Part shown: positions 18,847 through 39,700 of the stretch, piece after piece | Position numbering within the stretch: position 1 is the stretch's first letter | Layout: each line of letters begins with the position of its first letter | From: Chrysochromulina tobinii | Lineage: Eukaryota | Length of the DNA: 43,375 nt | Assembly (NCBI GenBank): GCA_001275005.1 | Contig: JWZX01002168.1 | Coordinates: forward strand, 1-43,375 | Reading direction: 5' to 3' | The notes under the pieces: generated by a model | What the model was told of the DNA's origin: nothing | What the model saw: only the letters and a program-made list of their open reading frames with translations | The model's database searches: none | Position numbers and translations under genes: made by a program

Positions 18847-21800
18847 TCACGGCGCCACGATGGAGCCACTTGCCCCAATGTCGACGACATTGCTCGAAAC
18901 CACCGGCCCGCCAGTTGCCTGATAGAGGACGAGGCGCAGCTGCGTGAACATCGAAGGTGGCGAGGGCGCCCCGCGCGAGACGACCCACGAGAGCGTACGT
19001 GCCTTGTCGTCCCAGCTGAAGGTGGTGCCGCGCATCGCCGTCGCCGTCGCGTAGTCCGTCGTCTCACCATCATCCTCAATCATCTGGAACGCGCCGTCCG
19101 CGCCGCCGTACACGCGCACCTCGAGCGGCCCACCCGGCAGCGCCCCAGTGTACTGCAAGAGGGGCACGAGGGGAACGATGGCGCCCGCGGGCGCAAACAC
19201 GGGCACAGCGGTGAAGTTGTCGTCGCTGTGAACCACGTCGATCGTGGGTCCCCTGATGGGGATCGTCCTCGTACCTTCCTTATTTGGCTCCGTGTCGAAG
19301 GGATACCACAGCCCCTCAGGCAGGTAGGCCGGGCTCTTCTCAGTCTCGCTTGTGAGGATCGGCGCGACGAGGAGCTCGCCGTCGAGCCACTGCGCAGTCA
19401 GGTCGGTGACGACGGGATCGTTCGGAAAGGCGGCGGCGAGCGGGCGCATCCACAGTCTTCCGGTGGTGTGCATCGCATGTGCGAGGGAGTAGTGGAACGC
19501 GATGAGGCGGTAGCGCTGGTTGAGAGCGCTGCGCATCCGGCTCGCGTATGGTTCGGGCCACAAGAAGGGGAAGTGCGGCTTGGCGTTCAGGGTACTGTGC
19601 ACCCTCATCGTGGGGAAGAAGGCGCCCGCTTGCATCCAGCGCGTCAGCAGCGGGCCGTTGGTCTCTCCAGTGAAGCCGCCGATATCGCACGCTACGTACG
19701 GCGCACCCGCAAGACCCCATCGGAGGATCATCGCGGGTGTGGACAGGAGATCGTCCCAACTTGGGTTGATGTCGCCTGTCCATACGGTAGCGCCCAGTCG
19801 CGCCATGCCAGGCGACCACGCGCGGTTGATTGAGTAGAAGCGCGCCGTCGAATTGTGCGCTGCGAGCGTCTGCTGCTGCGCCAGGTTCCAATAATAAAAG
19901 GTGAAGTAGTCGGTCTCGCCCTCGTCGTTCCAAAAGAAGCTCACGCCGTCGCTCAGGTAGTGCTGCTGGTGCGATACGTACCATTCCCGCGCGGCCGGGA
20001 TGCTGTAGTTGAGGTTACGCTGCTCGGCGTACAGTGATTTGGAGTGCAGCGCCCGCATGGTCTCAGGGGTCTCGCTCAGATTGCGCGGCGGCGCGTCGTA
20101 CTGGGCAGTCTCCCCCCCCGGCAGCACGAAGCCCTTTTGGCGTGCCTCGTCGAGCAGCGCCGTGTTGCCGAGCCGGGGCTTGCGGATGCCGCCGAAGCGA
20201 ATGTGCCTGTCCTCACGGTACGACTGGAACTGCTGCTGCGGCTCCGGGAAGGTGGTGGCGCCGTACCTGATGAGGGATGCACTCAATGGTAATCAGTGGT
20301 AATCAAGGGTATCAAGGGATGCCGCGTAGCTGATGAGGGGCGCAATCATCGATGAGGGGCGCAATCACGGCTGCGGCTCCGGGAAGGTGGTGGCACCGTA
20401 CCCAAAGTCAGTGTACCACGAGACTCCTTCTGGGGTAATCAGTGGCAATCAGTGGTAATCAGTGGTAATCAGTGGTAATCAAGGCACCGTACCCAAAGTC
20501 AGTGTACCACGAGACTCCTTCTGGGGTAATCAGTGGTAATCAGTAGTAATCAGTGGTAATCAAGGCATCGTACCCAAAGTCAGTGTACCACGAGACTCCT
20601 TCTGGGGGGAAGCCGTAGTCGGAGATGTTTGTGAACCATTCAAACTGCGATGAGGGCGGGAGTCGAGCGAGCGTGCGAGTTCACAGCGGGTTCACAGCGG
20701 GTTCATCCGCGTCTCATGGGCGGTCAGCAGTCAGCATGCAATGAGCGGCTTCATCCATGCAATCAACGGCTTCCTCCGCGTCACATGGGGTCAGCAGTCA
20801 GCACGGGTGCACACGCGCGCGGCAGGTCGAGGGGTCCCGGCTCGCACATCGCCGATTGGATATTGGAGGTAATCCGTGGTAATCAGTGGTAATCAGTGGT
20901 AATCAGTGGTAATCAAGGCTCGCACATCGCCGATCATGGCGTCGATTGGGTATTGGCCGTCGCGGAACTGCTGGAGCATCGACTCAATGTACGCGCGGTC
21001 CTTCCATCCCCAGCGGGACGCGAAGAAGCCGAACGCGTATCGTGGCGGCACGGCCGGGGCTCCGATGAGGGCATAATACGATTGCGTGCCCTCGTCGAGC
21101 GTCGACGCGGGCATCAGGTACAGCTCGAAGCCCGTGCCCCGTCTGGGGTGATTCCACGTGACGGCGCTCGTGGTGCGGGTGAAGGTGCTGGGGAAGAGGT
21201 TCGTCTTGCCGCTCCCCGTCGTCTCGCTCTCCGGCACCACGCCAAGGCAGCCGTAGCCGTCGGTGGACCAGTAATAGGGGGCGAAGACGCGCGTGTTGTC
21301 TACGACCGGGGACACCGTACCCGTGATGCTGAGCGCCCTGGCGCTCTTGTCGGCGCCCGCCCCGTACAGCGTGCTGGTGGGCGACGCAGAGAGGACCAGG
21401 CTGCGGGGCCCGAAACCAGTCCCTAGTGTGCGGTCTGAGCGCGGCATCGTGCCATCGATGGCGGACATGAGCCAGCAGTTGCCTTCGGAGTCGCCCGGCT
21501 GTCCATAGATCCAGTGGGCGCATCCTTTCGTGGCCTTGCACTTGCTGCAGCACTCGGCCTCGTTGTGAACCGTCGCCGGATCACCCGCCCGCGTCCCAGC
21601 CGTGATGTCGGTACCCTGCTGTGCCGCGCACGTGTCATTCGATGAGCCACCGTCAATCGGCATGGAGCGCGTCAGCTCCTTGCCGTGCGCGTCGAGGAGC
21701 ACAAGCTCGGAGTTGGGAGACACGAGAACGCTGCCAATGGAGGCAGCCACGATGCCCGTGCCAGTCACACCAGACACCTTTTCGAAGCTTGCATCTGGCC

Positions 21801-21990
21801 CTTCAGGAGCGACCATTGGCGTGTCTATGGGAGCCTCGCCAGCGGTCGTGAGGAAGCGCACACGGAAGGCCGAGGTGCCTCGCGTGGACAAGGCGATCGA
21901 TCCAGAGCCAGAGGGGAGCGGCACGACTACTTCCGCGTCGAGCGCGGCGGCGGCCATGGCGGCGACGCCCATAACGAAAAGTGATGTCAT
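18847..21990 (-). CDS. Glycoside hydrolase family 31 (alpha-glucosidase/xylosidase-like), secreted, with a PAN/apple insert (~851 aa, 2 inferred introns)
   Basis: PPRYAFGFFASRWGW, YPIDAMIGD|FEWF, FFWNDEGE (nucleophile), WTGDI (acid/base), CDIGGF, RWMQAGAFFPTMRVH; PAN-like ECCSKCKATKGCAHW..CWL. Introns 20645-20925 and 20267-20573 restore the frame (2,556 nt). Confidence 0.9.
20267..20925 (-). repeat. Intronic (CTGATTACCA)n arrays with exon-copy tandem duplications
   Basis: The + strand shows (TAATCAGTGG)n and three copies of GTACCCAAAGTCAGTGTACCACGAGACTCCTTCTGGGG. Confidence 0.88.
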
Positions 21991-22046
21991 GAGGCTGGAT
22001 TGTGGGCGGCGACACCGATGACGAAACCGAAGCTCAAAGGTCAGCT

Positions 22047-23162
22047 CTAAAGTTCGAGGCGTTTCGACGCCGCCTGAGTACAAATGTACCGCCGCTGAAC
22101 GTACGTACATCCTCGAGCGGCAGGTGAACCGCCGCTGCTGCCGCGAGTGCGAATCCCACCGACGGGCTGGTCGCTCGTCGGGGCACCCGCCATGCGAGTT
22201 TGGTTTGAGCTCCGACGGCCCTCGCGCCCTGCAGGGTCCTCGCCCCAGCCGAAGCTACGACCAATAAGGGCGTAGAGCTCGGCATTGTGCGGCCGGAAGA
22301 AGGCATCAAGCTTCGCTAGTTCCACAGTGGCGAGTCGGCCGACGTACCCCGCGCCGCCCCACTGACCGCCCGCGTTGCGCTCGGCGCCCGTCTGGCCCTT
22401 CTTCTCTAGCGAGGCCATCATCGCGGAGGGTATGGCTAGCCCTGCATGCGCCAGCACTCGCCGCACCGTCGGCAGCGGGTCAGCGTAAAACTCCTCGGAG
22501 CACTCGACGAGGACGCTCTCGCGACCAAAGTGCGCAAAGAAGCGCGCAAGGTGGCGCGCGTACAGGCCGTAGTTGAAGAACATGCGCACCAAGTTCGGCT
22601 CGGCTGGGCACTCGGGTGCGCATGCTATCATCCGATCCAGGCTGGATGCAAACTCGTCGTACGTCGCACGCTTCTGGGCCGCTCGGTGCTCGTTCATGCC
22701 CATGTTGTATGCGGAGTAGAAGCGATCGCTCGGATTGCGCAGGATTGTCACAAGCCGTGCGCGCGGCCCGAGCTGCTGCCGCATCATCGCGATGCGCTCA
22801 TCGGGCAGGACGAGGTAGTCGGGCGATGCGTCAAAGGCGATGGCCGTCGACGTGGCAGCCTCGACCTCAGGGCACGCAAACAGCCGACGGTACCAGCAGA
22901 GATTGACGCCGGCCTCGATCCCACGTGAGAAATAGCGTACTTCTTTGTCCCACGTGCACATCGACTTCCGCGTCAACCTTGGCCAATCACTTCTGCCGCT
23001 CTTGCAATCTGGGAAGACGATGTCGGGATGCGCTCGCAGCATGTTCGCCAGAGCAGTCGTGCCGCATTTGCGCGCACCGATGAGCAGGAGTGATGGAAGC
23101 AAGCCACCCGCGGTGGAGCAGGACGCGTTTGCGCTGCAGTCGGTCGCCTGGGAGGAAGCCAT
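22047..23162 (-). CDS. PAPS-dependent sulfotransferase (heparan-sulfate O/N-sulfotransferase-like fold)
   Basis: 5'-PSB LPSLLLIGARKCGTTAL, KEVRYF, FDASPDY, 3'-PB LRNPSDRFYSAY, GLYARHL, FFRPHNAELY. First ATG at 23162. Confidence 0.88.
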   Translation of the reverse strand: MASSQATDCSANASCSTAGGLLPSLLLIGARKCGTTALANMLRAHPDIVFPDCKSGRSDWPRLTRKSMCTWDKEVRYFSRGIEAGVNLCWYRRLFACPEVEAATSTAIAFDASPDYLVLPDERIAMMRQQLGPRARLVTILRNPSDRFYSAYNMGMNEHRAAQKRATYDEFASSLDRMIACAPECPAEPNLVRMFFNYGLYARHLARFFAHFGRESVLVECSEEFYADPLPTVRRVLAHAGLAIPSAMMASLEKKGQTGAERNAGGQWGGAGYVGRLATVELAKLDAFFRPHNAELYALIGRSFGWGEDPAGREGRRSSNQTRMAGAPTSDQPVGGIRTRGSSGGSPAARGCTYVQRRYICTQAASKRLEL

Positions 23163-23488
23163 TAAGCGGGCTTCACGCCCCCCTCGTGTGAAAAACAACA
23201 TCGCGGTACATGCATGCTACGGCACTGTTACTGCCCGCTCAGAAAACACACACGTTACATCTCGTGTGCGTGTCGGTTTGTGAAAGCCAGAAAAACCCAA
23301 CGCGGTTCGCGGAGCGTACCGGTACCGGTATGCGCAATTGGGTATGCGACGGCACTAATACTCAGTCAGATACGATCTCCAATCGTATCTGACAAGCTCA
23401 CCACTACCGGATCTCAGCCTGCTTGCAGGAAGTCGGATGTTGAGTATACAGTCTACAAAACTCGACATGTCGCCGGAGGTCAGAAACG

Positions 23489-24808
23489 TCAGACACGCCG
23501 GTGGTGCTGCTGCTCCGGGGGGGCGGGGTCGCGGGGGCGCGGCGCGGCACGAGCGACATGCACGGCCTTGAGCTCCTTGAGCTCTGTAGCTGGTGGCGGG
23601 GCGGTTTCTGGTGCTGCAGCATCCGCTAGCTCCTCGATCAGCTCGATCTCGAGCCAGGTCCAGCCGCTCGGTCGGACCCCCGCGGTATGCAAGGCCGCTG
23701 CCGCCATCGCGTTCACCTGCTTGCGTTGCTTGACGCAGTTGTACATGAGCACGCCGAGTGAGCAGATGGCAAATCCACTCAGGTTCACAACCGTGAGGTG
23801 ATCGCCGCGGGTAACTGCCGCCAGCAAGATGGTGAGCAGCTCCTTGAGGATGCCCAAGATGGATAGCGTCAGGGATGAGGTGAGCTTCACCAGCCAAAAC
23901 TCGGCGAGCAGCAGGGCGAACACGAGAGACGAGACGATGGTGAGGAATACAAGCAGCTGCAACGAGAGCTCTGCGGAGCTGAGAAACGGGGACTCGAGTA
24001 TCTCGCTCTCGAAGGCGAGTGCCGGTACCAGCGCACAGATCGCCGTGACGGGCGAGATGTACATCACGGAGCCCAGCGGATGGGAGTGGCGGGAAAGGAG
24101 AGCGGAGGGAGGCTCTGGACCCACGGCCGGCGCAGCGCCATTTGAATGGTCGGCGCTGGGGTGGTCGGCGCTGGTTCTGCAGCTTGAAGCGTCGCTGGAC
24201 CTGGCGCTCGTGGAGCTCCCGATCGACTCGCCGCTTCCAGCCGCGCGGCCTTTCATCAGAAGCTGGGTGAGAGCCCATCGGAGGCCACTCATGGCGGCCG
24301 AGGCAAGGCCGGTGAGCAGTCCAAACCCGCTGAAGCTGACTTCGGCGGACGAGGCCAGACCGATGCCAATGCACACAAGGGCGATGCTCGCCGCGGTGAG
24401 CGTCGACATTGGCTCGAGCCTGAGCAGCCAGCCAGCGAGCAAGACGAACGCCGGAATCGTGCCCTTGATGATCATGTGAAATGAGACGGACACCATGAGC
24501 AGACTCCAGTTCGAAAAGCCGATGTCTAAAGCCGTGCACAGCCCGATGGGCACCACCACCTTCTGGATGGTCTTGCGCGCGAGGGCCGGTTGGCGAAAGC
24601 GTGGAAGGCGTGTGATCAGACAGGCAAGCGTGGCGACTACGGCGTTAGTGGAAGCTGTCATGACGAATGGATAGTGGAATTCGCGGTTGGTGAGCAAGTG
24701 CTTGTTGGCAAAGACGATTGTGATGCTGGCAAGATACCATGTGAGAATCAGTGCTAAGATGACCAGGTGGCGTCGCCACGTGGGCGCGTCCATGCCACAC
24801 AAATCCAT
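23489..24808 (-). CDS. Nucleotide-sugar/triose-phosphate transporter family (SLC35C2-like) membrane protein
   Basis: About 10 hydrophobic segments; WY..SI.IVF.NK, FHYP, ALDIGFSNWSL, SGLRWALTQLL, LVKLTSSLTLSILGILKE. ATG at 24808. Confidence 0.88.
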   Translation of the reverse strand: MDLCGMDAPTWRRHLVILALILTWYLASITIVFANKHLLTNREFHYPFVMTASTNAVVATLACLITRLPRFRQPALARKTIQKVVVPIGLCTALDIGFSNWSLLMVSVSFHMIIKGTIPAFVLLAGWLLRLEPMSTLTAASIALVCIGIGLASSAEVSFSGFGLLTGLASAAMSGLRWALTQLLMKGRAAGSGESIGSSTSARSSDASSCRTSADHPSADHSNGAAPAVGPEPPSALLSRHSHPLGSVMYISPVTAICALVPALAFESEILESPFLSSAELSLQLLVFLTIVSSLVFALLLAEFWLVKLTSSLTLSILGILKELLTILLAAVTRGDHLTVVNLSGFAICSLGVLMYNCVKQRKQVNAMAAAALHTAGVRPSGWTWLEIELIEELADAAAPETAPPPATELKELKAVHVARAAPRPRDPAPPEQQHHRRV

Positions 24809-25144
24809 GTCTTGTCGGTCGCCATGCGAATTTGCGCTGGCTGTGCGTACGCGCGTCCAAGAGCCCCGGGGAGGGACCGACGCGCAAATAACCCAAACGC
24901 GGCAAGTTCGATCCCTTCGAAGGCTGATTCTGAATCTCTCAGCGCGTGAGAGGAGGCGCACACATGTGGGCACAGCCTGCACGCACTCACCGCTGCGCAG
25001 AGTAATGGGCACGGCACATCATGATCAGGTACCGCAGTACAACATACTCCCAACTCAGTCTTCCTCGTCCGCTCTCTCCCACAGGACTCCCCAAAACCAC
25101 AAGACACGCCGCCTGTTCACTGATCGATAGTCATCCTCTGGCCT

Positions 25145-28100
25145 TCAATTCACATTGAGGTCGATGGCGCGCAGAGGGGCGAAGCTTACATCCTCGTCCT
25201 CGGTGCACAGCATCGCGAGGGGCTCATCCACCGCGCAGCGCCGTGCAAAGTTGTCGAGCGCCGCCGCGCGCGCGTCGGCGTCTTGCTCGTCGCGCCCGTC
25301 GTACGGGGCCAGCGTAAGGAAGCCACCGCCAGCGTGCACGTCGCGCCCAAGCGAAGGGGCGACGAGCAACAGCTTGAGCAGCTCGCGCAGCTCCGATGCC
25401 TCATCTCGCGAGCCGCGTCGCTCGAGCACCTTGGCGTAGATGGAAGCGAGGGTCGAGAGTGTATCGGGGGCATCGGCGAGAGCGATGAAACCGCTCGCGG
25501 CGGCCGCCTGCTCGTGGAGGGTCGAGATCGCGTGCAATAAGAGGCCATCAGAAGAGGAAATCAAGAGGCAATTAACGACACTCGCCTGCTCGTGGAGGGT
25601 CGAGATCGCGTGCAATCAGAGGCCATCAGAAGAGGCAATCAAGAGGCAATTAACGACACTCGCCTGCTCGGCCGCGGTCGCGACTCCGTGAGGGTCGTGA
25701 TCGCGTGTAATCAGAGGCTATCAAGAGGCAATCCAGAGGCAATTAACGACACTCGCCTGCTCGGCCGCGGTCGCGACTCCGCCTCGGTGCGTGCTACTGC
25801 CGCCTCTGCCGTCGCGCCCTCCACGATCGAGACTCTTGTCGAGGTCGCGAATCCTCTCCACCGCCTCGGGCGGCGCGGCCAGCAGCTTCCGAGCCGCCGC
25901 GGCCAACTCGAGGATGTCCGTGGGCAGCAGCACGTTTGCGGGCAGCAAGTTCGCTGACCTCGTCAGCTCGCGAGGAGGGGTGCTCACGCGTACGGTCAGC
26001 GAGGGAGGCTGTGAAGAGGCCGGCTGTGAAGGGCCTCCGCCGCTCTTGCTGCCGCCCCGGCCTCGGTCGTCCCGGCCTCGATCGTCCCGGCCCTGGTCGG
26101 CGATGATGAGAGCGCGCGGGCGGAAGATAGTGCCTCCCTCGAGCACCACGTGCTGCGTGGGCGGCTCGTGCCGATCGTACCGATCGCGCGAGCCCGAGCG
26201 CGCCGGATCGTAACGGTCGCGATCCGAGCCACCCCCTGCAGCGGCCGAGATGGTCGCGAGGGGCAGCGCGCCCCACCCGAGGACCACCACCCTCTCGGGC
26301 TTCTCGGGCTCGACACCGGCGGACCGCTCGTCGCGACCATCTCCGCCGCTACGCCCAAGACGGTCGCCGCCGCGGTCGCCAGAACGGTTGCCAGCACGGT
26401 CGCCGCCGCGCTCGCCGCCGCGGTCGCCGCCGCGGTCGCCGCCGCCACCCCCCTTCGAGCGACTTGCGATGGTGACAGTGAGCTCGAGCAGCAGCTGAGC
26501 GCCACGTGGCATCGAGGCCGAGCGCAAGAGCAACTCACGAGAGCCGCGGGGCAGCAGCCACTGGTTGCGCTTCTCGTCGTAGTCGACGTCGAGGGAGAGC
26601 GTGTTCGCAAAGAAGGCATACTGCGCGCCCGAGGCGGCGCTCGGCGGCGGAGCCGAAGAAGGGCGCGCAGGGTCGTAGCGGTCGTAACGGTCGCGGCTAG
26701 ACGTGGCCGTCGGCGGCGGCGCACGCGTCATCTCAAGGATGGCGACGCGCATCGCCCGCCGTGTGATGAACTCATCTCGCGCGAGCTCCGGAGGCGGCGG
26801 CGCGCTCGCAATGTCATCGAGCTCGAGCAGGTAGCTTGGTGCTTCGAGAGGCACGAGCATCTTGAGGTCGTCGATGAGGCACGCGCGCTCGGAAAGTGGC
26901 GCGGTCACGTCGGCCGTGAGGACGGCGGAGAGCGCGTTCAGGTGCAGCCGCTGCCGCCCGCTGATCGGAGAGAGCGCGAGCGGTAGCGGAGGACGCTTCT
27001 CTTCCCCGCGCCGCTGTCGCTCGTCGTCGTCATCCTCACTGCGGTCGCGGTCGCGGTCGCGGCCGCGGTCGCGGTCGCGGTCGTTGTCGCGGTCGCTGTC
27101 CCGCCCCTTGTTGGCCTCGCCGCGCTCCTTGCCCCCTTTGGTGCGCCGCCCATCCTTCTCGTCCTCCTTGCGGTCCTCCCTGACTGCCTCGGGCAGCCAG
27201 CGCAGCGCGCTCAGCACCGACACGCTCATCGTGAGCGCGCCGACCGACACCGCCTTGCCGCCGCCGCCGCGCCGGCCGCCCTTCTCTTTGGGCTGCTCGA
27301 CCGGTTCGAGCGACCGGCGCACATTCGTCCAGTCGCCGTCTGCGGCAGCGCCCTCGTCGCCCTTGCCCTTGCCCTTGCCCTTGTCCTTGCTGCCTCTCGA
27401 GTCCTTCGCGTCCTTGGGCGGCGGCGTGCGCAGCTCGCTCAGCGGCAGGCGCAGCGTGCCTAGCAGCATGCGGTTCTCGCTCAGCCCGTGCTTGCGCTCC
27501 AAGTCGACGCCGTACAGGTTGAGCACCACCGCCTGCTCCGCCTCGGGCAGCTCCTTCAGCTTCTTGGCGAGCTCATCACGAGATCTCTTGAGCTGCGCGG
27601 TCGCCTCGCCCTTCGCCTCAGGGTCGCGCGTGCGCAGCTCGAGCGCCGCGCTGGGCGTCGCGTGGTCGTGAGCACGTCCCTTGCGCCGTCCGAGGTCGAC
27701 AGGGGGTGAGAGTGTCTCCCCCATCCCGAGCACCGAAATGCCCACCTGCAACGCGTCCACGCGCTCATCGAGCTGCTGCGGATCCGCCAAATGGACCGTG
27801 TGCACCGCCACGTGGACTCGCGTCGCTCGAAGCTCCTCGCGCAGCTTGCCCAGCGCCGAAGCGGCGAGGAGGTCGACGGTGACACTCGCGACCGTCTTGC
27901 CGCCCTCGCGCGCGAGCGTCTGCTTGTGCTTCGTGTAGTCGCCGTTCTTGAGCGTAGTCTCCAGGTTGAGCGTCGCCTCACCTGCGGCGTCAGTTGGCCG
28001 AGCTTCGTCAGAGAGGCAATCAGTGGCAATCAGTGGCAATCCGTTGCAATCAGTGGCCATCAGAGGCCATCAGTGGCAATCAGTGGCCATCAGAGGCCAT

Positions 28101-31100
28101 CAGTGGCCATCAGTGGCAATCAGTGGCAATCAGAGGCCATCAAAGGCCATCAGAGGCAATCAACGAATCTCACCCAGTTCGAAGCGTAGCTCCTCGTCGC
28201 GCTCGCCCTTGCTCCGCGAGGTCTGGCCGCGCGCGGCCGAGGCGGGCGCGAGGGCATGCAGCACCAGGTATACATCCGAGTCCTCGGGCGCCACGGTCGC
28301 AAGCGCGTCGAGCAACGCCCTGCGCGCGGGTGCACCGGCCGACGTAGCAAACGAGCGCTCGAAGGCGAGCGGCTGCGTGGTGCCGTCCTTGTAGAGGTTG
28401 AGCCTCTCCGTGTACAGCGGCGCTTCCTTGCTCGTGATCCCCTTGATGTCAATCTCAATCTGCACCGTGTCGAGACGCTCGAGGCGGTGCTTGCGGATGA
28501 GCTCGTCGATCAGATCGGTCCCTTCGCGGCTGAGCTCGAGCCCCTTGAGCGTCATGCGCAGCGGCTCGTCGACGGTCTTGCCGCCACCGCCACGCCATGG
28601 CGGCACGTCCCCACCCTTGCTCTCGCCCTTGCTGTCCTTGTCCTTGTCGTCCTTTCCGCCCTTGGTCTTCTTGGGCGAGTAAGACTCTCCTCGCGCATGC
28701 GCGGCCGAACGCTCCGCCTGCTCTGCCTCGGCTTCGATGGCGCGGCTCGCATCCTGTGGAGAAGGAGAGGCAATCAGAGGTCATCAGAGGTCCTCAGAGG
28801 TCAGCAGAGGTCATCAGTGACGGGGCGCCGTAATGAGCGCATCGCACCTGCTTCTCCTTATTGAGCCACTTTTGGAACTCAGAGAGCGCCTCGGTGCATG
28901 CAAGCGAGACGACGAGGGTGCCCACGCCCTCCTTGCCACCCGCCGGATCAGCATCTGCCAGCTCGAGCTTGCGCTCCTCGACGTCGTCGCCGAGCTTCAT
29001 CAGCTCGACCAAGTTGAGCTTCGCCTTGCCGAGGATCGAGCCCTCGGGCTTCTTGTCCGAGCTCCCTGCCTGCTTGGCCTCCTTGTCGCTCAGGCCGTAC
29101 AGCAGGAACGTCACATTCGACGCTTCCTTGTCGTCCTTGTTAGCGAGCAGCTCGAAGAACGCGCGGCGCTCCGCGGAGCCAACCGCCAGCCCGTGCGCAT
29201 GCGACCACTTGAGCGTCGTCTTCTCGTCACCCTTGTGCACCGACGAGCCGAGCTGGAGGGTCTTTCCGTCGGCGGCGGGCACCTCGATCCAGATGCGCAG
29301 GTGCGCTGGGGGCTTCTTCTTCGCCTTGCCGCCGAGCGTGAGGGAGTGCAGCTGGAACGTCATCTTGTACTTGGTTGCGAGCGCCGCCACGTCCACCGCC
29401 TTCTCGCTGCCGCCTGCGCCCGCCGCCGCCGAAACGGTCGACGGTGCGGCGGCCGCAGGCTTGTCAGTCGCGGGTGCACCTCCGCCGCTGCTCTCGCTGT
29501 TCACACTCCCCTTCACACTCCCCTTGGCGGCGGCTGGCGTCTTGCCGTCCGCTTCGTCGGCGATCAGCTTGAGCGCGGAGAAGCCCTTGACGGCGCACAC
29601 GAGCGTGCCGATCACGGCCTTGGAGCCAGATTCGACGAGATCGAGCGCGCCATCAAAGTCCTTCTGGTCGGCCAGGAGCTTCTCGAGCGAGACACGCCCG
29701 AGGCCCACCTGAGGAAGGAGGCGATCAGACGACATCAGGGATGCAAACGACATCGGGGTGCAATCAATGGTAATCAGTGGTCATCAAGGCCAGACGCTCC
29801 CCCCGAGGCCCACCTCCTTGCTGATGCCCTCCTTGTCTGTAACCACCGCCGCGAACTGCACCTCGCTATCCTCGGGCTCGCTCGTCTTGAGCGCGCGCAC
29901 AATCGCGGTGCGGAGGTCCGTTCCACCGGCCACGTCGTACGTCTGCTCGAGGGCGAGCGCCGTCGAGGTGCCATCCTTGGACTCGATGGTGATCGGCTCT
30001 GTCTTGACCTCGAGGCTCGCCACGCCGACCATGTCGATCAGGATGTGAAGCGTGCCGCTGCCGGCGGCCGCGGCGCGCCGGCCGGAGGAGGCGGCTGCGC
30101 CTCCGACGCTCGTGAGCACCGCCTTGCTGCTGATGGTGATGCTCTTGATCGCCACGGTGAGGGTGCTCGAGGCCACAGTGCGCACCGCCTCGGCCGTGAG
30201 CGCGCGCAGTCCCGCGAGGCATTGAGTGGTTACGAAGAGCGCGCCGGCTTCGGAGGCGCTCTTCGACGAGCCATCGCCTGCCCGGAGTGCAACGCGCGTC
30301 TTCGTGAGCTCGGCTCCCGTCGAGAGTAGTGTCGCCAGGGAGAGGCGCGCCGTCGCGATCACCGGCCCGTCGGCGGACCCGCCAGCGGACGCGGGCGCGG
30401 GTGCGGGCGCTGCTGGCGCAGGCGCGCCACCATCTCCAAAGACGTCAGAGTCGAAGAGGGACGGCGGCGGGTCGTCGGAGCTGAAGTCGTGCACGACGCC
30501 CTTGTCCTTGGGCTTGGGCTTCTCTGCTGTGGGTGCACTGCCGCCACCGCTACCCCCCGACGCGGCCCGCAGTGTGAAGACGACCTCCGAATCGACGGGC
30601 GTCTTCTTGGGCGCGAATGCCTTGATGGCGGCCTCACGTGGCGCCGTGCCGGGCTCGAGGGCAAACGAGGCGTCGAAATTGGCGGGAACGGCCTCACCCG
30701 CCTTGGGGGTGAGCGCGGCCGAGGTGCTCGACACGACACCGAGCAGGTCCACGTGGATGACCAACGGCGCGATGGGCTTGGGCGGGCGCACGAGCAACAC
30801 CTCATGCACGGACAGCTTGAGGTTCACCGAGCCCGGCGCGCCGCCGCCAGAGCTCTCCTTGAGCGTGCGAAGCGCGGCGAGAGCGACCACCGAGACGCTC
30901 AGCGTCCCAAGGGTCTCCTTGCCGTTGGGGGAGAGCACGGGGCGCGGCGCCATGGGTGAGAGGTCCTGCCCGGCCGCGAGCAGCGCCTTGAGCGACACGT
31001 GGCAGATGCCGTACGTCGAGGCGCTGCCGCTTCGGTCGAGGGTCTCAACCACGAGCTGAATCTCGCTCTCCTCCTCATCGGCCGCCTCGAGCGCCGTCGC

Positions 31101-34100
31101 GAGCTTCACGGCGAGCTTCGAGAGTGGCGCGAGTGTGAACGACTTGGAGAAGGGGAGTGCGTAGAGGCCTTCGCCGTGCGCGGTCGCCTTAGGGGTCGTC
31201 TCCTCGAGCTCGGCCACGCCGAGCATGTCGACGAGCAGCCGCACGCCATGGCGCGCGGCGGGCGGTGCTTTCTTGAGCTTGAGTTCCGTCACGTCGACGA
31301 AGAGTTGGTCCGAGTGCGCCGACTTGCCCATGGTGGCGAGTGCCGCGATCGCCTTGACGCCGACGGTGAGCTCGCCCACCACGACGCCGGCGCTATCGAC
31401 GATTGGGCGTGGCGTGGGCGGCAGGTCGGCGCCCTTGGCGACCAGATCATCCTCCAGATGCACACGCGCCACCTGATGAGGGGCGTCATCAGGAGGTCAT
31501 CAGAGGCAATCAGATGGCGACCAGATGGCAACCAGCATGCAATCAGAGGCGCACTCACCCCGAGCTCGGTGCATGCAATCAGAGGCGCACTCACCCCGAG
31601 CTCGGTGCATGCAATCAGAGGCGCACTCACCCCGAGCTCGGTGTGCTTCGACTTGTCCTTCGGGTCGACACCGAGCACGACGAACTGGATCTCGCCGTCG
31701 TCCTTCTCGGGCGACGCGAGCGCGTCGAGCAACGCCTGACGAAGCGGCGTCCAGGGGTCATCAGGGCTCATCAGGTGTCATCAGGGCTCATCAGGGCTCA
31801 TCAAAGGTCATCAGTGGCACTCGCCTGACGAAGCGGCGTCCCGTCGGGCTCATCAGGGCTCATCAGGGCTCATCAAAGGTCATCAAAGGTCATCAGTGGC
31901 ACTCGCCTGACGAAGCGGCGTCCCGTCGGAGACATCGTACGCCTCGACCAGCCGCAGCCCCGCGCGGCCAGAGCTCATCTTCTCCTCGGCGGCTCGCAGC
32001 TTGCCCGCGTCATTGCTGCCCGGCATATCGATCTCGATGCGCACGAGGGACGTCTTCGCAAGCTTGTCCTTGAGTCGGATCGCCGTCAGCGTCACCTGAT
32101 GAGGGGCGTCATCAGGAGGTCATCAGAGGCAATCAGATGGCAATCAGATGGCCATCAGATGGCCATCAGATGGCAATCAGCATGCAATCAGAGTCGGATC
32201 GCCGTAAACTGCACCACGATCCGCTGCGACGCGCCCGACGCTTCCTTTTTGCGCTTCTCCGCCTCCGCCACACGCGCCGTCGCGAGCTGCTCTTCGAGCT
32301 GCGCCATCGCCGTCAGCACCTTGCACGTGCACATGAGCGTGCCCACCATCGTCCCCTTGGCCGCCTCGAGTGCATCGGCCGACGCTGATGGCGCGCCGGT
32401 CGGCGGTGCCGCGAGCTCGAGGCTCTCGTTCACGAGGTCCTGATGAGGGGGGCAATCAAGAAGTCATCAGAGGTCATCAGGGAGTCGAGCAATTGGGCGA
32501 CGGTGCCCTGATGAGGGAGGCCATCAGAGGTGCACTCAGAGGTGCACTTAGAAATCAGAAGTGCAATCCACGGCAATCAGAAGTGCAAGGAGAGGTGCAC
32601 TCAGAAGTGCACTCGGAGGTGCAGCCAGGTGGGTGCCGGTAACGACTTGGGCAGGCACCTTATTCTCGTCCAGCAGCGCACCCATGTCCACCACGCCGAG
32701 CGCGAGGGGCGCCGTGCCGGGCGCGACGCCGCCCTTCTTGTCGGTCGCATGCAGCTCGAACCGAATGGTGCCCTCCCGCCCGTGGAGTACCTCGAGCGGT
32801 GTCGGCGGTTGCGCCGCCCTCGCAGGCGGCGCGTCGAGCGCGAGCAGCAGCGCGCGTGTCACCTCGCCCCCTGCGCTCACCTTGACGGAGTGGGTCAGGC
32901 TGAAGGTGCAGCTACCATCCACGCCAAGCGAACCTTCGGCCGAGAGCATCGTGATGATCAGTAAGTGGCAGTCAGTAGCAATCAGTAGCAATCAGTGGTA
33001 ACCAGTGGCAATCAGTGGCAATCACGTGACGAACCTTCGGCCGTCGCGAGCGGCTCGACGGTTGGCTGCCCGCCGAGCTTGACGAGCAGCTTCACCGGCG
33101 TCTTCTTCGCCGGCTTGGCGGAAGCGCTCGTGATCGTGGCGACCGTGGCGCCGACAGTGACCACTGCCTTGGCCGCCAGCTTGCTCGCGAGCGCCGAGAC
33201 GGGCGCTCGTCCGGCGCTGACGGCGAACGGCGTGAGAGCTGCGATCGCGCCCACGGTGCATGTGAGCTCACCGAGCTTGGCACCAATGACGCCGTCCACC
33301 GAGGTACCGATGATGGAGAGCGGGCCCGAGTGGTCCTTGCCCTCGGAGACGAGCTGCTCGAGCGAGCAGCGCGCCACGCCGATCTCACCCTCGGGCAGCT
33401 CGTTGCCCTTCTCATCGCAGGCGAGCACGACGAACTGCACCTCCGAATCCTCAATCTCGTCCGACTCGAGCGCCTTTGCAAACTGCGCCACGAGCGGGTT
33501 GCCCGCGGCCACAGCGAATTCCTTCTTGAAGGCCAAGGTCGCGCCGGAGGCTCGGCGCGGCAGAGTGATGAGCTCAGAGGCTTCCTGGGCCACGCCGAGC
33601 ATGTCGAGCTCGACGCGCAGCCGGGCGCCCTTCTCACCCAGGGAGCCCGCGGCGCGCGCCAAGACCTTATCGGCGAGCGTGAGCGATCCCATGCTCACCT
33701 GATGAGGGGCGTCATCAGGAGGTCATCAGATGCAATCAGATGACAATCAGATGGCAATCAGGTGAGCGATCCCATGCTCACCGTCACCGCCTCGGGCGTG
33801 CCCAGCGCCGTGCTGAGCGCGCCCGCGAGCGCGTCGTTCACGGCGTCGGCCCGGGGCGATGAGACTCCGTCTACCCCGGCCTCGCTCTCGGGGATCTCGT
33901 CAGATCGGATCTCGCCGCTCCTCTTTGAGGGGCTGAAGGCGCGAACCGCTTTCATCGACGCGCCGAGTCGGCGGCTCGGAGTCAGTGAGCTGTTGGGCTT
34001 CGCACTCTCGGGCTCCTTCTTCGTACTGCCGGGCGCCGCGCCTGCCTTCGAGGCCTCGGCTGCCTTGGCCGCCTTGCCGCTGAGCCCGACGCCCTTCCCC

Positions 34101-36221
34101 TCGTCCTCCTCGGTCTCGGGCGCGCGCCGACGGCGAGCCGCCTCGGCCGGCGCCGTCTTGGGCGCCTCCTCGGCCGGCTTGGGCGCCGTGGCGGGCGTTT
34201 TGGACGCGTTCTCGACCGCTTTGAGGGCCGCGATGGCGGTGATCATGCACGTGAGCTGGCCGACAGGCTCCTTCTCACCGGTGCGACGGATGGCCAGCGG
34301 GCCCGAGTGGTCCTTGCCATCGGAGACGAGCTGCTCGAGCGAGCAGCGCGCCACGCCGATCTCGCCCTCGGGCAGCTCCTTGCCCTTCTCATCGCAGGCG
34401 AGCACGACGAACTGCACCTCTGAATCCTCGGTTTCATCAGAATCGAGCGCCTCGAGATACCTAATTAGGGACATGGGGCGCTGTGGGGTGAGCGCTTGCA
34501 TGCAAGGAGACGCAGGCCATCAGTGGCAATCAACGTACGTGAGACGCAGCGCTGGTTGTGCGCGCGCGTGCATGCAAGTCAGGTCATCAACGGGCAGGTC
34601 ATCAGTGGCAATCAACGTACTTGAGCGCGAGCTTCGACTCCGGTCCGGCGAGGTAGTCTCTCTCAAACGAGAGTGGCGCACTCGCCTTCGCACCGAGCTT
34701 GCTCGGGGCCGTGCGCAGGTTCTCCTTGTCGGTAGCAAGCATATCAATCTCGACACGAATGTACGTCACCTTCTGCGGCTTGGCGTCGGCCGCGGCTCCT
34801 TTGCCCTTGTTCGCCGCCGGCAGCGTCGCGCCCGACTCGGCGAGTGTCACGGACGAGAGCGCGACGCGAACCGACGGAACGCCACTCAGAGCCGTGGCAG
34901 CCACGGCGGCGCCCTTGCCGCCACTCAGGCTCAGGATGCTCCTCTTCTTGCCGCCTTCGTCGGGCGCCGTGTCGTCTTCCTCGGCGTCGAGGCCGCGCAG
35001 CACCGCCAGGCACTCGACCGTGCACGTGAGCGTGCCGAGCGGCTGCGGATTCGTGTGGAGGCGGACATCAGAGCTCATCAGAGGCCGTCCTTAGAGGTCC
35101 TCAGAGGCAATCAGAGGTCATCTGAGGCCATCATCAGAGGTCCTCAGATGTCCTCAGAGGCCATCAGAGGCCATCAGAGGCCATCTGAGGCCAGCAGAAG
35201 GCCATCAGCGCACCTGCGGACTCTTGTCAAGGGAAAGGATCGGCAGCTCGCTCTCCTCATCCTCGACGTCGCGCAGCCCGTCGATCGACTTGCTCAGGTC
35301 CACCTCGGCCGTGCCCAGAGGCGTCGCCTTGCCCCCCTTCTTGACCGAATCCACGTAGATGCGCAGCTTCAGGCTCGACTGTCGTCGCGCCTTCATCAGC
35401 GCAGTGCAAAGCGCCGTGCCGGGCGGCACCGGCCACGTCGCGTCAAACTCCAGAGCCGCCACGCTGTCCGTGAGCGGGAGCGCCGGGCACGAGATGGGTT
35501 GGAGCAGCCCGGGCGGCACGCCCACCACCTCGCAGCGCAGCGCTGCGTATTCGACAGCCAGGGCCTTTGGGCTCTTGGCATCAAGAGCGAGCTCTGTCGC
35601 CTTGAGCACGAGCACCTGACGGCTCTTGGTAGCCTTGGCGGCGACGTCGGCGGCGGCGGCCTCCATCGCGTCGGCCTTGAGCGCCGTCATCGCAGCGAGC
35701 GAGTGCGTCGTGAGCGTGAGCTCTCCCACCTGGCTGCTCGCGGCATCCCGCACGGGCAGCGACTCCCCGTGCACCTCCTGCTTGTTGTGGAGGATCGTCT
35801 CGAGACGAAAGACGGCCGTGCCGAGGAGCGTCTCCTTGGCCGCAGCCGAATCTTTCTTCGCCGACGTGGTGGGTGCGTCCTCGTTCACGCCGTAGACGTT
35901 GATGAGCACCTCGCTATCCTCATCTTCATCGGTCAGCAGTGCGGCGATGAGCGCTTCGCGCACCGGGTTGTCGCTGCCACTCGAGCCGATTTCGTACTTG
36001 CAAAGCCAGTTGACCTTGGCCTCGCCAAGCTTGAGAACCACGGCCGCCGACCGCTTGAGCTCGTCCTCTTGCCCGGGCATGTCCAACTCGACGATCACCT
36101 TCTTGCCATCGTACCGCTGTGCGAGCTTGCTGGTGAGCGAGACGCTCACCACCGTGAGCTCGATTTTCGCGTCGGCCGGCGTGCGCGCGCCGAAGAGAGA
36201 GATGCGCGACACTGCTTTCAT
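25145..36221 (-). CDS. Giant ciliary transition-zone-like protein: ~12 tandem RPGRIP1/RPGRIP1L-C-terminal-type C2 domains plus a nephrocystin-1-like C-terminal region (~3,084 aa, 12 inferred introns)
   Basis: Recurrent module (V.IDM.G...AL.....EDSEVQF.V.....G.A...L..L.....D......G.L...V....AL). The C-terminus (RRAMRVAIL..FANT..LLLRS..LLLEL..GWGALPL..LEGGT..NLLP..FAPL) parallels NPHP1 as I recall it. Introns 35043-35213, 34461-34620, 33699-33781, 32934-33034, 32440-32658, 32096-32214, 31736-31906 (GC-AG), 31473-31630, 29709-29813, 28754-28847, 27982-28173 and 25508-25756 (GC-AG) give a 9,255-nt open frame. Confidence 0.75.
25508..25756 (-). repeat. Three tandem intron-like units, each starting CAG|GCGAGTGTCGTTAATTGCC
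   Basis: The + strand shows GAGGCAATTAACGACACTCGCCTGCTCG three times. Confidence 0.88.
27982..28173 (-). repeat. Intron with (CTGATTGCCA/CTGATGGCC)n array
   Basis: The + strand shows (CAATCAGTGG/CCATCAGAGG)n. G|GTGAG donor and CAG|GTGAG acceptor join ELG-EATLNL. Confidence 0.85.
31473..31906 (-). repeat. Two introns with donor-spanning tandem duplications
   Basis: A 36-nt unit CACCGAGCTCGGGGTGAGTGCGCCTCTGATTGCATG x3, and GACGCCGCTTCGTCAGGCG x3 with CTGATGAGCC/TTGATGACC arrays. Confidence 0.85.
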
Positions 36222-36709
36222 CTTGGCCGCTGCCTGGCTCTCGCGGCGGCAGCCGCGAGTGTGTCGAGTACTTCCACCGGTGCCTCTCCCTCCACTCACT
36301 GCTGATGATGAACGCAATCAAAAGTTTGCTTCTAAAGCAGGACCGCCATCTCGACCTCCTCGATGGTCTCAACGAGGGAGGATTCTGGCTCTGTGCTGTC
36401 TCTTAGTCTAACACTTAGTTAATTTGTGATGCCGTTGGCCGGTCATGCGCCAATGGCAATGTGCGCCTGTCATTCGCATGGTAGGATCCTTCGTGTGTGT
36501 CTGCGAGCGAGATGAAATCGGAGATACAGGCGGTGTCGCACACCGAAAATCGACGCCACACTCACCGCTCCACGCCACAGGCGTATGATACTTCATGACT
36601 TACTTTTAATCACGCATTACCGTACCATAAAGGTCGCGTCGTTCTGCACGCCTCAGAGTCCAGAAGCAGGCTTCGTTCTCGTCACTGACTCACACTCCGC
36701 TATGATGCG

Positions 36710-39700
36710 CTAAGCATACAAGTGTCCGTCTTCCACTTGGCCATCCCCGAGTGGCGGCTTCCTGGTGCCTTCGGCCGGGGAGCCGAAAAAGAATGTTGCC
36801 AAGGAGGTCCCCCAATTGGAGATGGAAGCATTGGTTGGCGACGCGGATGCGCCCGACTGTCTCAGAACATCAGCTCGAAGCAGCTTGGTCGAGGGGCTCG
36901 AAGCACGCAACTCGCCCTGTATGTGCTCGAGCTCGTCCACGATAAAAGGGAACGCAGGCCGTTGAACAGGATTGGTCTTGAGGCACCGGGTGGTAAGCGC
37001 GAGGATGCCAGGTGGGCAGCCGGCCACTTTGCGCAGCTGGTCGAGCGGGGTCGCTTGCCCATTGACAATAATCGCCATGAGCGCGCGCAAGTCTTCCTCC
37101 GGAGGCGTTCCAGCGGGCAGTCTCACATGGCTGTACGGTATGGATCGCGTCCCCATGTGTGCGAGCATGCATCCAAAGCTCCACACGTCCGTGGGCTTGG
37201 CTTTTGCGCCCGAGGTGAGCGCAATGGCCTCGGGAGCCATGTAAGGCGGCGTGCCCGCGGCCCCCTCCGCCTGCCCGGCGTACTTGGTGAGTGCGGTGCC
37301 AAAGTCAGCCACCTTGGCGACCCAATGCTCCGTGAGTAACACGTTGCCAGGCTTCAGGTCGCGATGGACCACGCCCATCGCATGCAGGTACGCCATGCCC
37401 TTGGCCACATCGAGGGCGACGTGGATGAGAGATGCCTCCCACGTGGCGAGCTGCTCGCGCTGCCGGTGGTGGTGCAGCACATCGAGCAACGAGGCGGGCA
37501 TGAGCTCCATCAGAATGCCCGTCTTCCCATCGTCGTCGTCGTGTGCGATGCCCATGGTGAGGAGCACATTGGGGTGGTGCAGGAGCATGGTGAGCTCGAA
37601 CTCGTTCTTTAGCTCTTGTAGGGCCGCCGGCGTGGTCGCCGCCCGTAGGCTCTTGATGGCGCATGGGGTCGAGTTCCACACGGCCACACGCACCTCGCCG
37701 AAGCTGCCCGCTCCGAGTCTCTCTTTCAGAGTCAGCTCTTTCCAGCTCAAGCGTTTGACCACGGTCATCGTACCTCCCGCCAGGCTCGACATCTCAGTGC
37801 CCTCTGGGATGGGCGCGGAGTGTTGATTGCCCGGCAGTGAGCCGAGTGTGCGCATGCGCGTGCGGCCGGGGCCCTCGATGGAGACCCTCTCGTTGATTAG
37901 ATCCTTGTGTGATCGCCGATTGTTGGTGGGATCGCGCACTGACGTGGGGTATTCGTGCGTGAGCTTGTCGGACGACGCAAACAACGGATCCTTGGTGACC
38001 TCGCGCAGGTCGCGCTGGGCAGCCGCCGACGCAGCCACCGCACTCGTTTCCGCCTCCGCCGTGCCCTTCACGTTAACGGCAGGAGCGGAGGCCTTGGCGA
38101 TGGTGGCTTGGGGGGCGGGTTTGGGATTGGGAGCCTTCGGTACGACCGTCAGTGTGGGCACAACGTGGACGGTGTGCGTTGGCTCGGACACGTGGAGGAT
38201 GGGGAACTTGTTCATCGGGAACAAGGGCGGCAAGGTCTCCTCGTGGGAGGTGAGCGGCCAACATGCCCATCCTCCTCGTGTCAACGAAGGCTCCTTGCGG
38301 TCTCGCGACCTGCGCGCCTCGCCCAGCTGTTCGGTGCGCGCGCGCACGAGGTCCTCCGTCCTGAGATTATGGAGCTCGGCGCGCTTCTGATCAAACTGAA
38401 CCGCGATAGAGTCCTCAAAGTCGGAGAGCAGCTGGACAACAACCTTCCGGTCGGCGTTCCCGGTGAAGAAGATCCGCTTCAAGCGCAGCTTCTTCTTGCA
38501 CTGGCGAAGGAGGTGCTCCGGCGACTGCACGACCACCACCTCACGCGGGGCGATGCGAAGCTTGCGGACGGGACGGCCAGCACCATCTTTCCACAACTTG
38601 GGCGCGATCACGCTCTCTGTGCACTCGACTCCATCGACTGCGAGGATGAGGTCGCCCGCGCGCAAGCCTGCTTTAAATGCCGGCGAGTTCGGATCCACGA
38701 CAACCACCTTGTTGGGTTCGAAGGTCGGAAAAAAGGTCGCACCAACCCTTTCGTTCGGGTTTTTCAATTGAAGGGTGAGGTCGATCACGTCGATATTGAT
38801 GAGCTTCGGACCGCTCGCCTCCGCCTGCTTAAGCTCGTCCGAAAGGTCCTCGCCGCTCTGCTTGAGCTGCGTGAGATGCGTGAGCACAATCGAGGCAGCG
38901 GACGTCTCAAAGGTCGGCCACCCTCGCGAGCCGTACGGCCGCAAGTTGTACATTGGGTACACCACGCGGGCCTTGCGACGAAGCGGGTAGCCGCGCACGT
39001 TCAGTAAGCGCGCGGCGCGTGCCGCCCTCTGGTCGTAGATACGCACCACAACCTCACCACCCCGCCCCTTCTTCTCGCAGGCCAGCACGCGGTCGCCCAA
39101 CTCCATCTGCAGCTCCTCGAGCGACTTGTCCTTGAGCGACTTGTCTTGAACGACGAAAACGGTCCCCGTGCGCTCAGAGACGAGCTCGCTCGGCGCGACG
39201 TCGTCACTACCGAGCTTGCCAGGCGGGTTCGTGAGCTGCAGCACACAGGTGCCTGTGGCCGACGCGTAGAGGCAGCCCATGACGGAGAGGCCGCGGCAAA
39301 ACTTGAGCTCATTCTCGAAGACGTGCTCGCCCATCAGCTGTGGCTCCTTGCCGCCGCACATGCCCACGAGCTTGGGATTGTGCCGTGCCTTCTCGGCGTC
39401 GCCCTCCTTGCGGAAGCGCACGAAGCCTTCGGCAGAGACTGCCTCGTCGAAGCGGTACACACCCCTGAGGTAACGTCCGTGGAAGAGCACACTGACGTGA
39501 TCGCTCAGGCCGAGGCTCTTAAAGTCCGCAATGGAGACGAGCTCCCACTTGTTTTCCTCGCACAGGGAGACGAGCTCGTCGACGCAAACCTGCGCCTCGT
39601 CCTCCGTGGCGACGCGCTCCAACTCAAACCTGAGCACTGTGAGCGGGCCCTGAAAGACCACCTCGGACCCGAAGCGCAGCGCGATCGCCCCCGGGGCGTG

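What the first reader, a model, noticed from the sequence alone, without database searches (positions are those of the whole stretch)
25145..36221. NPHP1-like C-terminus fused to ~12 RPGRIP1-type C2 domains
Splicing joins a dozen fragmentary ORFs into one ~3,084-aa protein. Known: NPHP1, NPHP4 and RPGRIP1L form a transition-zone module; animal NPHP1 has an N-terminal coiled coil and SH3, and RPGRIP1L has a single C-terminal RID-type C2. Inference from remembered motifs: here a long array of RID-like C2 domains replaces the NPHP1 N-terminus. That would be a Rosetta-stone fusion, possibly relevant to the flagellar transition zone or haptonema.
Basis: partly seen in the sequence, partly recalled or inferred. 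Interest (0 to 1): 0.7.

Follow-up and report, generated by a model that had tools for sequence, protein, structure and literature searches.

The report
Giant NPHP1-like protein with twelve C2s
A freshwater haptophyte alga transcribes and splices a 13-exon gene for a 3,084-residue protein in which twelve copies of a ciliary C2 domain (single in animal RPGRIP1/RPGRIP1L) sit in front of what is likely the core of the kidney-disease protein NPHP1, which would make it an unusually long scaffold for the gate at the base of the flagellum.

Summary
The minus strand 36221-25145 gives a 13-exon, 3,084-aa model with no internal stop. RNA contigs show 11 of 12 introns as joints; intron 4 is supported only indirectly. 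There are twelve RPGR1_C/RID-type C2 repeats, shown by Pfam, leave-one-out profiles, and PDB 4QAM_B by sequence and fold. Four other lineages encode the same array plus C-terminal module in one uninterrupted ORF, so the fusion does not depend on the splicing model.

The module of an orthologue folds as a C2 domain followed by helices. Its conserved motifs match the published NPHP1-C2 alignment better than NPHP4N- or AHI1-C2, by eye and by a post-hoc pattern. No search returned a named NPHP1, and the Atlas ranked NPHP4-labelled clusters first, so NPHP1 orthology is likely (about 0.8), not shown.

A window neighbour clusters with a Chrysochromulina tobinii protein. Best reading: a haptophyte NPHP1 whose variable N-terminus became a multivalent C2 array at the flagellar transition zone. 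The 'Rosetta stone' and haptonema ideas are untested. New variant of a known kind.

The parts
25145..36221 (-). Whole gene, 13 exons, 3,084 aa: exons 36221-35214, 35042-34621, 34460-33782, 33698-33035, 32933-32659, 32439-32215, 32095-31907, 31735-31631, 31472-29814, 29708-28848, 28753-28174, 27981-25757, 25507-25145
   Evidence: model; RNA joints, RNA contigs reach 36277 upstream of the ATG
35676..36176 (-). RID-type C2 repeat 1 (aa 16-182)
   Evidence: Pfam RPGR1_C E 2.3e-08; leave-one-out 79 bits
34992..35624 (-). Repeat 2 (aa 200-353; spans intron 1)
   Evidence: leave-one-out 43 bits
34214..34889 (-). Repeat 3 (aa 388-559; spans intron 2)
   Evidence: Pfam on exon 3 piece E 7e-05; 143 bits
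33231..33799 (-). Repeat 4 (aa 698-859; spans intron 3); shares a 124-nt tract with repeat 3 at 3 differences
   Evidence: Pfam E 5.3e-06; 123 bits
32302..33182 (-). Repeat 5 (aa 876-1062; spans introns 4 and 5)
   Evidence: 50 bits
31329..32232 (-). Repeat 6 (aa 1086-1237; spans introns 6-8)
   Evidence: 108 bits
30864..31313 (-). Repeat 7 (aa 1243-1392)
   Evidence: Pfam E 5.6e-08; 87 bits; modelled
30195..30833 (-). Repeat 8 (aa 1403-1615, with a ~60-aa low-confidence Pro/Ala/Gly insert)
   Evidence: 60 bits
29565..30170 (-). Repeat 9 (aa 1624-1790; spans intron 9)
   Evidence: 101 bits
28881..29378 (-). Repeat 10 (aa 1853-2018)
   Evidence: Pfam E 3.1e-07; 69 bits
27851..28573 (-). Repeat 11 (aa 2090-2266; spans intron 11)
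   Evidence: 64 bits; positional orthologues in 5 of 5 lineages form one clade, 100/99
27191..27832 (-). Repeat 12 (aa 2273-2486), most diverged; in the same exon and reading frame as the C-terminal C2
   Evidence: 24 bits vs best shuffle 7.2; clade of 5 of 5 lineages, 100/99
25979..26980 (-). C-terminal module, part 1 (aa ~2557-2890): C2 domain, likely NPHP1-type, with Gly/Arg/Asp-rich inserts
   Evidence: fold of orthologue P0037; motif order vs published alignment
25148..25978 (-). C-terminal module, part 2 (aa ~2891-3084; spans intron 12): predicted helical domain ending the protein
   Evidence: helices 244-344 in the P0037 model, block pLDDT 50-73; conserved across orthologues

Best explanation
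This is a transcribed, spliced gene whose protein carries twelve RID-type C2 domains in front of a predicted C2 + helical module that is likely the haptophyte NPHP1, and it likely works as a long multivalent scaffold at the flagellar transition zone. Shown: the gene model, the twelve repeats and their family, and the same architecture in four other lineages. Predicted: the fold of the module. Inferred: (1) the module is NPHP1 and docks on NPHP4, as the C-terminal 131 residues of mammalian NPHP1 do (PMC8104407), which would place the protein at the transition zone. (2) The repeats, like the RPGRIP1 RID (PMC4519163), would bind proteins rather than Ca2+ or lipid, so the array would give up to twelve docking sites on a flexible string. 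At roughly 4 nm per C2 domain (recalled size) that is tens of nanometres, the scale of the gap between doublets and membrane. (3) The array arose once, by joining a RID-type domain to NPHP1 before these lineages split; the last repeats stayed fixed while the front ones duplicated and were homogenised.
For: Gene and splicing. Repeats: Pfam (orthologues E 1e-35 to 6e-60), leave-one-out test 12 of 12, PDB 4qam_B by profile E 4.1e-05 and by fold E 5e-09, TM 0.72 on the target, the best single-domain match. Single-ORF orthologues: P0022/P0024 (10 and 9 repeats), P0034/P0045 (9), P0036 (12, reads through to a matching C-terminus), P0047 (11); modules 29-76% identical between lineages; repeats 3-12 colinear with P0022 at 33-57%. 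The last two repeats form position-specific clades at 100/99, the third-last at 91/76. Module fold: C2 sandwich Z 11.1, rmsd 3.1, 138 aligned to Aida C2, then helices to the end. This is the order 'NPHP1-C2 + alpha-helical domain' in Table 1 of PMC3495828, which also reports that the NPHP1 N-terminus varies by lineage. Ordered motifs match protist NPHP1-C2 rows (oomycete, ciliate, chlorophyte) and not NPHP4N or AHI1. An ordered NPHP1-C2 pattern matches 8 of 9 proteins tested and 0 of 2000 shuffles each; an NPHP4N pattern matches 0 of 9. No membrane-spanning stretch stands out (highest 19-residue hydropathy 1.77).
Against: No search returned a named NPHP1. A 3-row profile against 1.84 billion proteins gave 17 hits; all 17 (one fetched earlier as P0002) look like members or fragments of this family and none carries an NPHP1 name. 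Word-based searches, Pfam and PDB sequences gave nothing for the module. The ESM Atlas ranked NPHP4-labelled clusters (0.92, 0.91) and an unnamed oomycete cluster (0.91) first, with a low recognition value. The motif pattern was written after I had seen both sets and was not run on the published sequences, so it is partly circular. The fold is of an orthologue (35% identical to the window piece), and the helical part has low confidence. No contig spans the whole gene, and run X13 appears to keep intron 4, which holds an in-frame stop. Location, partners and lack of Ca2+ binding are all carried over from mammalian proteins.
Confidence: 0.62

Rival explanations
1. The module is not NPHP1 but a diverged relative from the NPHP4/NPHP1 C2 clade (for example an NPHP4 N-terminal fragment, or a haptophyte-only paralogue); the protein is still ciliary.
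For: Atlas top hits are NPHP4-labelled; no named NPHP1 hit.
Against: The NPHP4N hallmarks seen are absent in 9 of 9 proteins. NPHP4 continues with a second C2 and Ig domains, whereas this protein ends in predicted helices. The Atlas value was below its recognition level.
Confidence: 0.15
2. The protein is a true NPHP1-RPGRIP1L fusion that replaces both genes (strict Rosetta stone), the array doing the job of RPGRIP1L.
For: Both parts belong to one module, and the NPHP1 C-terminal region pulls down RPGRIP1L directly or indirectly (PMC8104407).
Against: Only the RID-type domain is present. No Pfam hit points to the other RPGRIP1L C2 domains in the window, and no long N-terminal coiled coil precedes repeat 1, which starts at residue 16. 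The RID's known partner is RPGR.
Confidence: 0.1
3. The protein was co-opted for a haptophyte-specific structure (haptonema base, or the extra plates and filaments of the prymnesiophyte transition zone) rather than the ordinary membrane gate.
For: The hits found all belong to this one family; haptophyte transition zones have distinctive plates and a central filament (PMC9010356); a dozen-domain array suits a structural spacer.
Against: No localisation data. The taxa of the orthologues are not given by their sources, so restriction to haptophytes is inferred. Repeat number (9-12, some ORFs incomplete) and linker lengths (2-225 aa) vary, which fits a fixed ruler poorly.
Confidence: 0.1
4. Array and module are two neighbouring genes, joined only by the gene model.
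For: No single RNA contig spans the gene.
Against: Repeat 12 and the module's C2 share one 2,225-nt exon; an X13 contig of 2,169 nt crosses introns 9-11 into that exon; four other lineages have single ORFs of 2,030-2,779 aa with both parts.
Confidence: 0.02

Closest known systems
NPHP1 / nephrocystin-1 (SH3 + NPHP1-C2 + alpha-helical domain; PMC3495828 Table 1)
   Same: C-terminal C2 followed by a predicted helical domain that ends the protein; motif order of NPHP1-C2, closest by eye to oomycete and ciliate rows; a variable N-terminus is already known for the family (SH3 or EF-hands).
   Different: About 2,550 residues of twelve RID-type C2 domains in place of SH3 or EF-hands; long Gly/Arg/Asp inserts in the module; too diverged for any search run here to return a named NPHP1.
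RPGRIP1 / RPGRIP1L RPGR-interacting domain (Pfam PF18111 RPGR1_C; PDB 4QAM chain B)
   Same: Sequence family and fold of each repeat.
   Different: Twelve copies at the N-terminus instead of one at the C-terminus; the coiled coil and the other two C2 types of RPGRIP1L were not found.
Multi-C2 ciliary and membrane proteins (C2CD3, CEP120, ferlins, extended synaptotagmins)
   Same: Tandem C2 arrays; they appear in the fold search of the three-repeat model.
   Different: C2CD3's array is of the PKC type; here all repeats are RID-type, and no membrane anchor is apparent.
NPHP4 (NPHP4N-C2, NPHP4C-C2, Ig domains)
   Same: Related ciliary C2 type; top Atlas labels.
   Different: Hallmark motifs absent; no second C2 or Ig domains after the module's C2.

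Membership tests
RPGR1_C / RID-type C2 (repeats) | Pfam PF18111 above curated cut-off | tested here: met
   5 of 13 exon pieces; all 6 long orthologues scanned; the other repeats tie in by leave-one-out profile, 12 of 12
RPGR1_C / RID-type C2 (repeats) | C2 beta-sandwich like 4QAM chain B | tested here: met
RPGR1_C / RID-type C2 (repeats) | Binds RPGR; does not bind Ca2+ or phospholipid (PMC4519163) | not testable with these tools
   needs binding assays; no genome held in which to look for RPGR
NPHP1 | C2 fold followed by a terminal alpha-helical domain | tested here: met
   model of orthologue P0037: C2 at 38-232 (Z 11.1), helices 244-344 at low confidence
NPHP1 | NPHP1-C2 sequence hallmarks in order, rather than NPHP4N or AHI1 hallmarks | tested here: met
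   by eye against supplement parts; post-hoc pattern 8 of 9, shuffles 0 of 2000 each; partly circular
NPHP1 | Significant profile or sequence match to a named NPHP1 | tested here: inconclusive
   none; Atlas gave NPHP4 labels and an unnamed oomycete cluster and nothing usable for the helical part; no NPHP1 sequence was available for a direct comparison
NPHP1 | Sequence homology of the helical domain to that of NPHP1 | not testable with these tools
   the published alignment covers the C2 only; the likeness of the helical part rests on recall
NPHP1 | Transition-zone location and NPHP4 binding | not testable with these tools
   needs localisation and pull-down
RPGRIP1L orthologue | Long N-terminal coiled coil + RPGRIP1N-C2 + PKC-C2 before a single RID | tested here: not met
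   repeat 1 starts at residue 16; only RPGR1_C passes in Pfam for the window; PF00168 and NT-C2 hits in orthologues lie on the repeats
NPHP4 | NPHP4N-C2 hallmarks, second C2 and Ig domains | tested here: not met
   pattern 0 of 9; model ends in helices

The most novel reading that the evidence does not exclude
Haptophytes built a lineage-specific giant NPHP1 whose string of about a dozen RID-type C2 domains is itself a structural filament or spacer of their unusual transition zone or of the haptonema base, taking over part of RPGRIP1L's role; it would be a first molecular handle on these structures.
Probability: 0.15. Interest if true: 0.8.

Novelty: new variant of a known kind. Interest (0 to 1): 0.55.

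Why it matters
NPHP1 and RPGRIP1L belong to one transition-zone module behind human ciliopathies, and how its C2 domains are arranged in the ciliary gate is unsettled. A conserved natural fusion that puts about twelve RID-type domains on the NPHP1 core suggests that this domain can act as a repeatable building block and not only as a single RPGR dock. It also extends NPHP1 to haptophytes, which I did not see in the protist part of the 2012 alignment; a 2014 survey called NPHP1 opisthokont-only. At about 320 kDa (estimated from length) with many unique epitopes, it is a ready marker for asking what the haptophyte transition zone and haptonema base are made of. The gene is easily missed: public records hold it mostly as exon-sized hypothetical proteins.

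Tried and rejected
Own-genome searches for separate RPGRIP1L, NPHP4, NPHP1 or RPGR: impossible, no genome held.

Metagenome scan: 2 loci from 189 pattern matches. Both are this same organism or near-identical, so they are not independent support.

Searches for a named NPHP1: word-based searches with exon 12 (5 hits, 4 of this family and 1 low-complexity chance hit), exon 13 (0) and the module alignment (3, all this family); PDB sequences (0); Pfam on module pieces (nothing below E 0.1); Atlas on the helical part (no usable hit). These blanks show neither absence nor novelty.

PI3K-like 'C2 + helical' reading: rejected. Foldseek alignments reaching into the helices have rmsd of about 15-19 A, and the VIA rows cover mainly residues 38-232.

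P0051 (508 aa) carries part of the module behind an unrelated N-terminus. I read it as a mis-joined gene call because its cluster mate P0030 differs at that point; not resolved. The other short hits are fragments and say nothing about fusion.

The 853-codon plus-strand frame 33744-36305 was taken as an antisense shadow of a GC3 0.85 gene and not pursued.

Self-BLAST of the protein gave no usable rows and was replaced by profile searches. The scan's earlier findings held nothing. No complex prediction was run.
Full report
Organism. A neighbouring window protein (5602-6441) falls in a 90% cluster with a Chrysochromulina tobinii protein. The RNA runs holding the gene are labelled mixed-culture or freshwater. 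The window is therefore from the freshwater Chrysochromulina group of haptophytes (inference). No whole genome was held.

Gene model. Reading the minus strand in three frames gave 12 introns, 10 GT-AG and 2 GC-AG, 83-249 nt long. RNA contigs list joints of matching size for introns 2 and 5-12 and for 1 and 3, 11 of 12, most in two to four runs; intron 6 is listed in X13 only. Both tables were cut, so unlisted rows may exist. Intron 4 is supported by a 16-nt loose end in X7 that reads on into exon 4 and by an X1 piece that leaves the stretch at the exon border. In X13 an intron-4-like stretch is kept at about exon depth; in the window this intron has an in-frame stop, so a short form may exist in some strains. 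Run X15, of unrecorded kind, shows none of the four listed splice joints. All runs are short-read contigs and none spans the gene.

Repeats. Pfam RPGR1_C passes its cut-off in 5 of 13 exon-sized pieces; repeats cut by introns could not be scanned whole. Internal searches delimited 12 units of 150-215 aa. Each scores 24-143 bits against a profile built without it and its counterpart, while the best of 200 shuffles reaches at most 10.2. A profile of nine window repeats finds the RPGRIP1 RID (4qam_B, E 4.1e-05) first of 4 hits. A model of exon 9 shows separate beta-sandwiches with low confidence in their relative placement (mean pLDDT 70, pTM 0.41), and its best single-domain match is again 4qam_B (E 5e-09). 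Linkers run from 2 to 137 aa.

Conservation. P0004 led through its cluster to P0022 and P0024. A whole-library profile search gave 17 hits, among them P0034 and P0036, and P0037's cluster gave P0047. These make four lineages besides the window with array and module in one uninterrupted ORF of 2,030-2,779 aa, with 9-12 repeats; some ORFs start inside the array or run into a probable last intron. Their modules are 29-76% identical between lineages. The fusion is therefore independent of my splicing model. In a tree of 53 repeats the last two positions form clades across all five lineages (100/99 each) and the third-last a weaker one (91/76), while front repeats group partly within lineages. Window repeats 3 and 4 share 124 nt with 3 differences. 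The sources give no taxa for these orthologues; that they are haptophytes is inferred.

The C-terminal module. Folding orthologue P0037 on a 12-row alignment gave a confident beta-sandwich, then helices of low to middling confidence; its last 80 residues do not align with the family and were disordered. The sandwich is a C2 domain: Aida C2 ranks first by Foldseek and by VIA (Z 11.1, rmsd 3.1, 138 aligned), with many C2 domains close behind, so the fold does not name the family. PMC3495828 gives NPHP1 as SH3 + NPHP1-C2 + alpha-helical domain and notes a variable N-terminus (passages). I read its supplementary alignments (parts 5, 55, 56, 58, 59, 66, 69, 71, 72 of 77). Protist NPHP1-C2 rows show, in order: a basic residue before the second strand, a G-N-V motif with a Trp about a dozen residues later, a hydrophobic strand ending in Glu, a C-x-W strand, and an L-x-G-G-T motif. 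The five lineages here keep R2630, N2682, W2697, E2722, W2792 and G2838-G2839 invariant in that order. The NPHP4N and AHI1 rows have other hallmarks. A pattern of these features matched 8 of 9 proteins and 0 of 2000 shuffles each, and an NPHP4N pattern 0 of 9. I wrote both patterns after seeing the data and could not run them on the published rows, so this measures chance, not specificity. Against the label: no search returned a named NPHP1, and the Atlas put NPHP4-labelled clusters first at a weak recognition level and gave nothing for the helical part. The likeness of the helical part to NPHP1 rests on recall and comes from no call. I put NPHP1 orthology at about 0.8.

Mechanism. Mammalian NPHP1 binds NPHP4 through its C-terminal 131 residues, and its C-terminal region alone pulls down RPGRIP1L directly or indirectly (PMC8104407, passages). 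The RPGRIP1 RID is a C2 domain that binds RPGR and neither Ca2+ nor phospholipid (PMC4519163, whole abstract). Carried over by inference, the module would anchor the protein in the NPHP complex at the transition zone and the array would offer many protein-docking sites along a flexible arm. The strict Rosetta-stone reading is weaker, since the RID's known partner is RPGR and the rest of RPGRIP1L was not found here. Haptophyte transition zones have distinctive plates and filaments (PMC9010356, passages), which keeps a structural role open, but no evidence here bears on the haptonema.

What is in print. Ten full-text searches (listings only unless named) showed no paper on this architecture; 'haptophyte' with 'RPGRIP1' gave 0 papers. 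The library lacks most subscription papers, and bioRxiv supplements were closed. A 2014 survey restricted NPHP1 to opisthokonts (PMC4092220, passages), whereas the 2012 alignment has chlorophyte, stramenopile and ciliate members; 'Emiliania' does not occur in that supplement. In the parts I read, RPGRIP1C-C2 appears without obvious multi-copy proteins (parts 67, 68 and 70 not read in full). PMC6215392 (one passage) and PMC9860276 (two passages) were consulted for context.

Verdict. Observation confirmed; interpretation partly supported. A real, expressed, conserved architecture: a new variant of known transition-zone proteins, with the NPHP1 label likely and the function inferred. Interest 0.55.

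Noticed in passing
window ~34280-34420 and ~33320-33445 (minus): Cores of repeats 3 and 4 share a 124-nt tract with 3 differences, synonymous sites included; P0022 shows the same pairwise likeness. Likely gene conversion within the array.
   Followed up: partly
all 12 introns, window 25508-35213: Each intron carries 2-12 copies of a short CTGAT-type micro-repeat (0.3 per kb in exons) and 3-21 nt of direct repeat at its borders; several contain tandem copies of their own donor region. Introner-like; PMC9860276 describes Chrysochromulina introners with 4-bp target duplications. The intron positions are not shared by the single-ORF orthologues, if those are genomic.
   Followed up: partly
window 32934-33034 (intron 4): The acceptor comes from a duplicated exon end and lacks the usual pyrimidine-rich end; it appears spliced in X1 and X7 but retained in X13.
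   Followed up: partly
window 5602-6441 (minus): Pyrenoid shell (PyShell)-like protein, Pfam PF25192 E 4e-90.
   Followed up: no
window 36710-43177 (minus): Single 2,155-codon ORF with LRR, hydrophobic stretches, PDZ and a C-terminal protein kinase domain; directly upstream of the gene on the same strand.
   Followed up: no
window 23489-25356: An X1 RNA contig runs from the gene's last exon past the laid stretch towards the downstream TPT/SLC35C2-like transporter gene on the same strand (record 1); long 3' UTR, read-through or DNA.
   Followed up: no
window 18847-23201 (minus): A split GH31 glycoside hydrolase with a PAN domain, and a sulfotransferase; ordinary neighbours with no ciliary link.
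   Followed up: no
P0004, P0022, P0029, P0030, P0035 and window aa ~2660, ~2815: A short motif of the form [FY]DPARP recurs several times in the low-complexity inserts of the module and late repeats in several lineages; possibly a linear binding motif.
   Followed up: no
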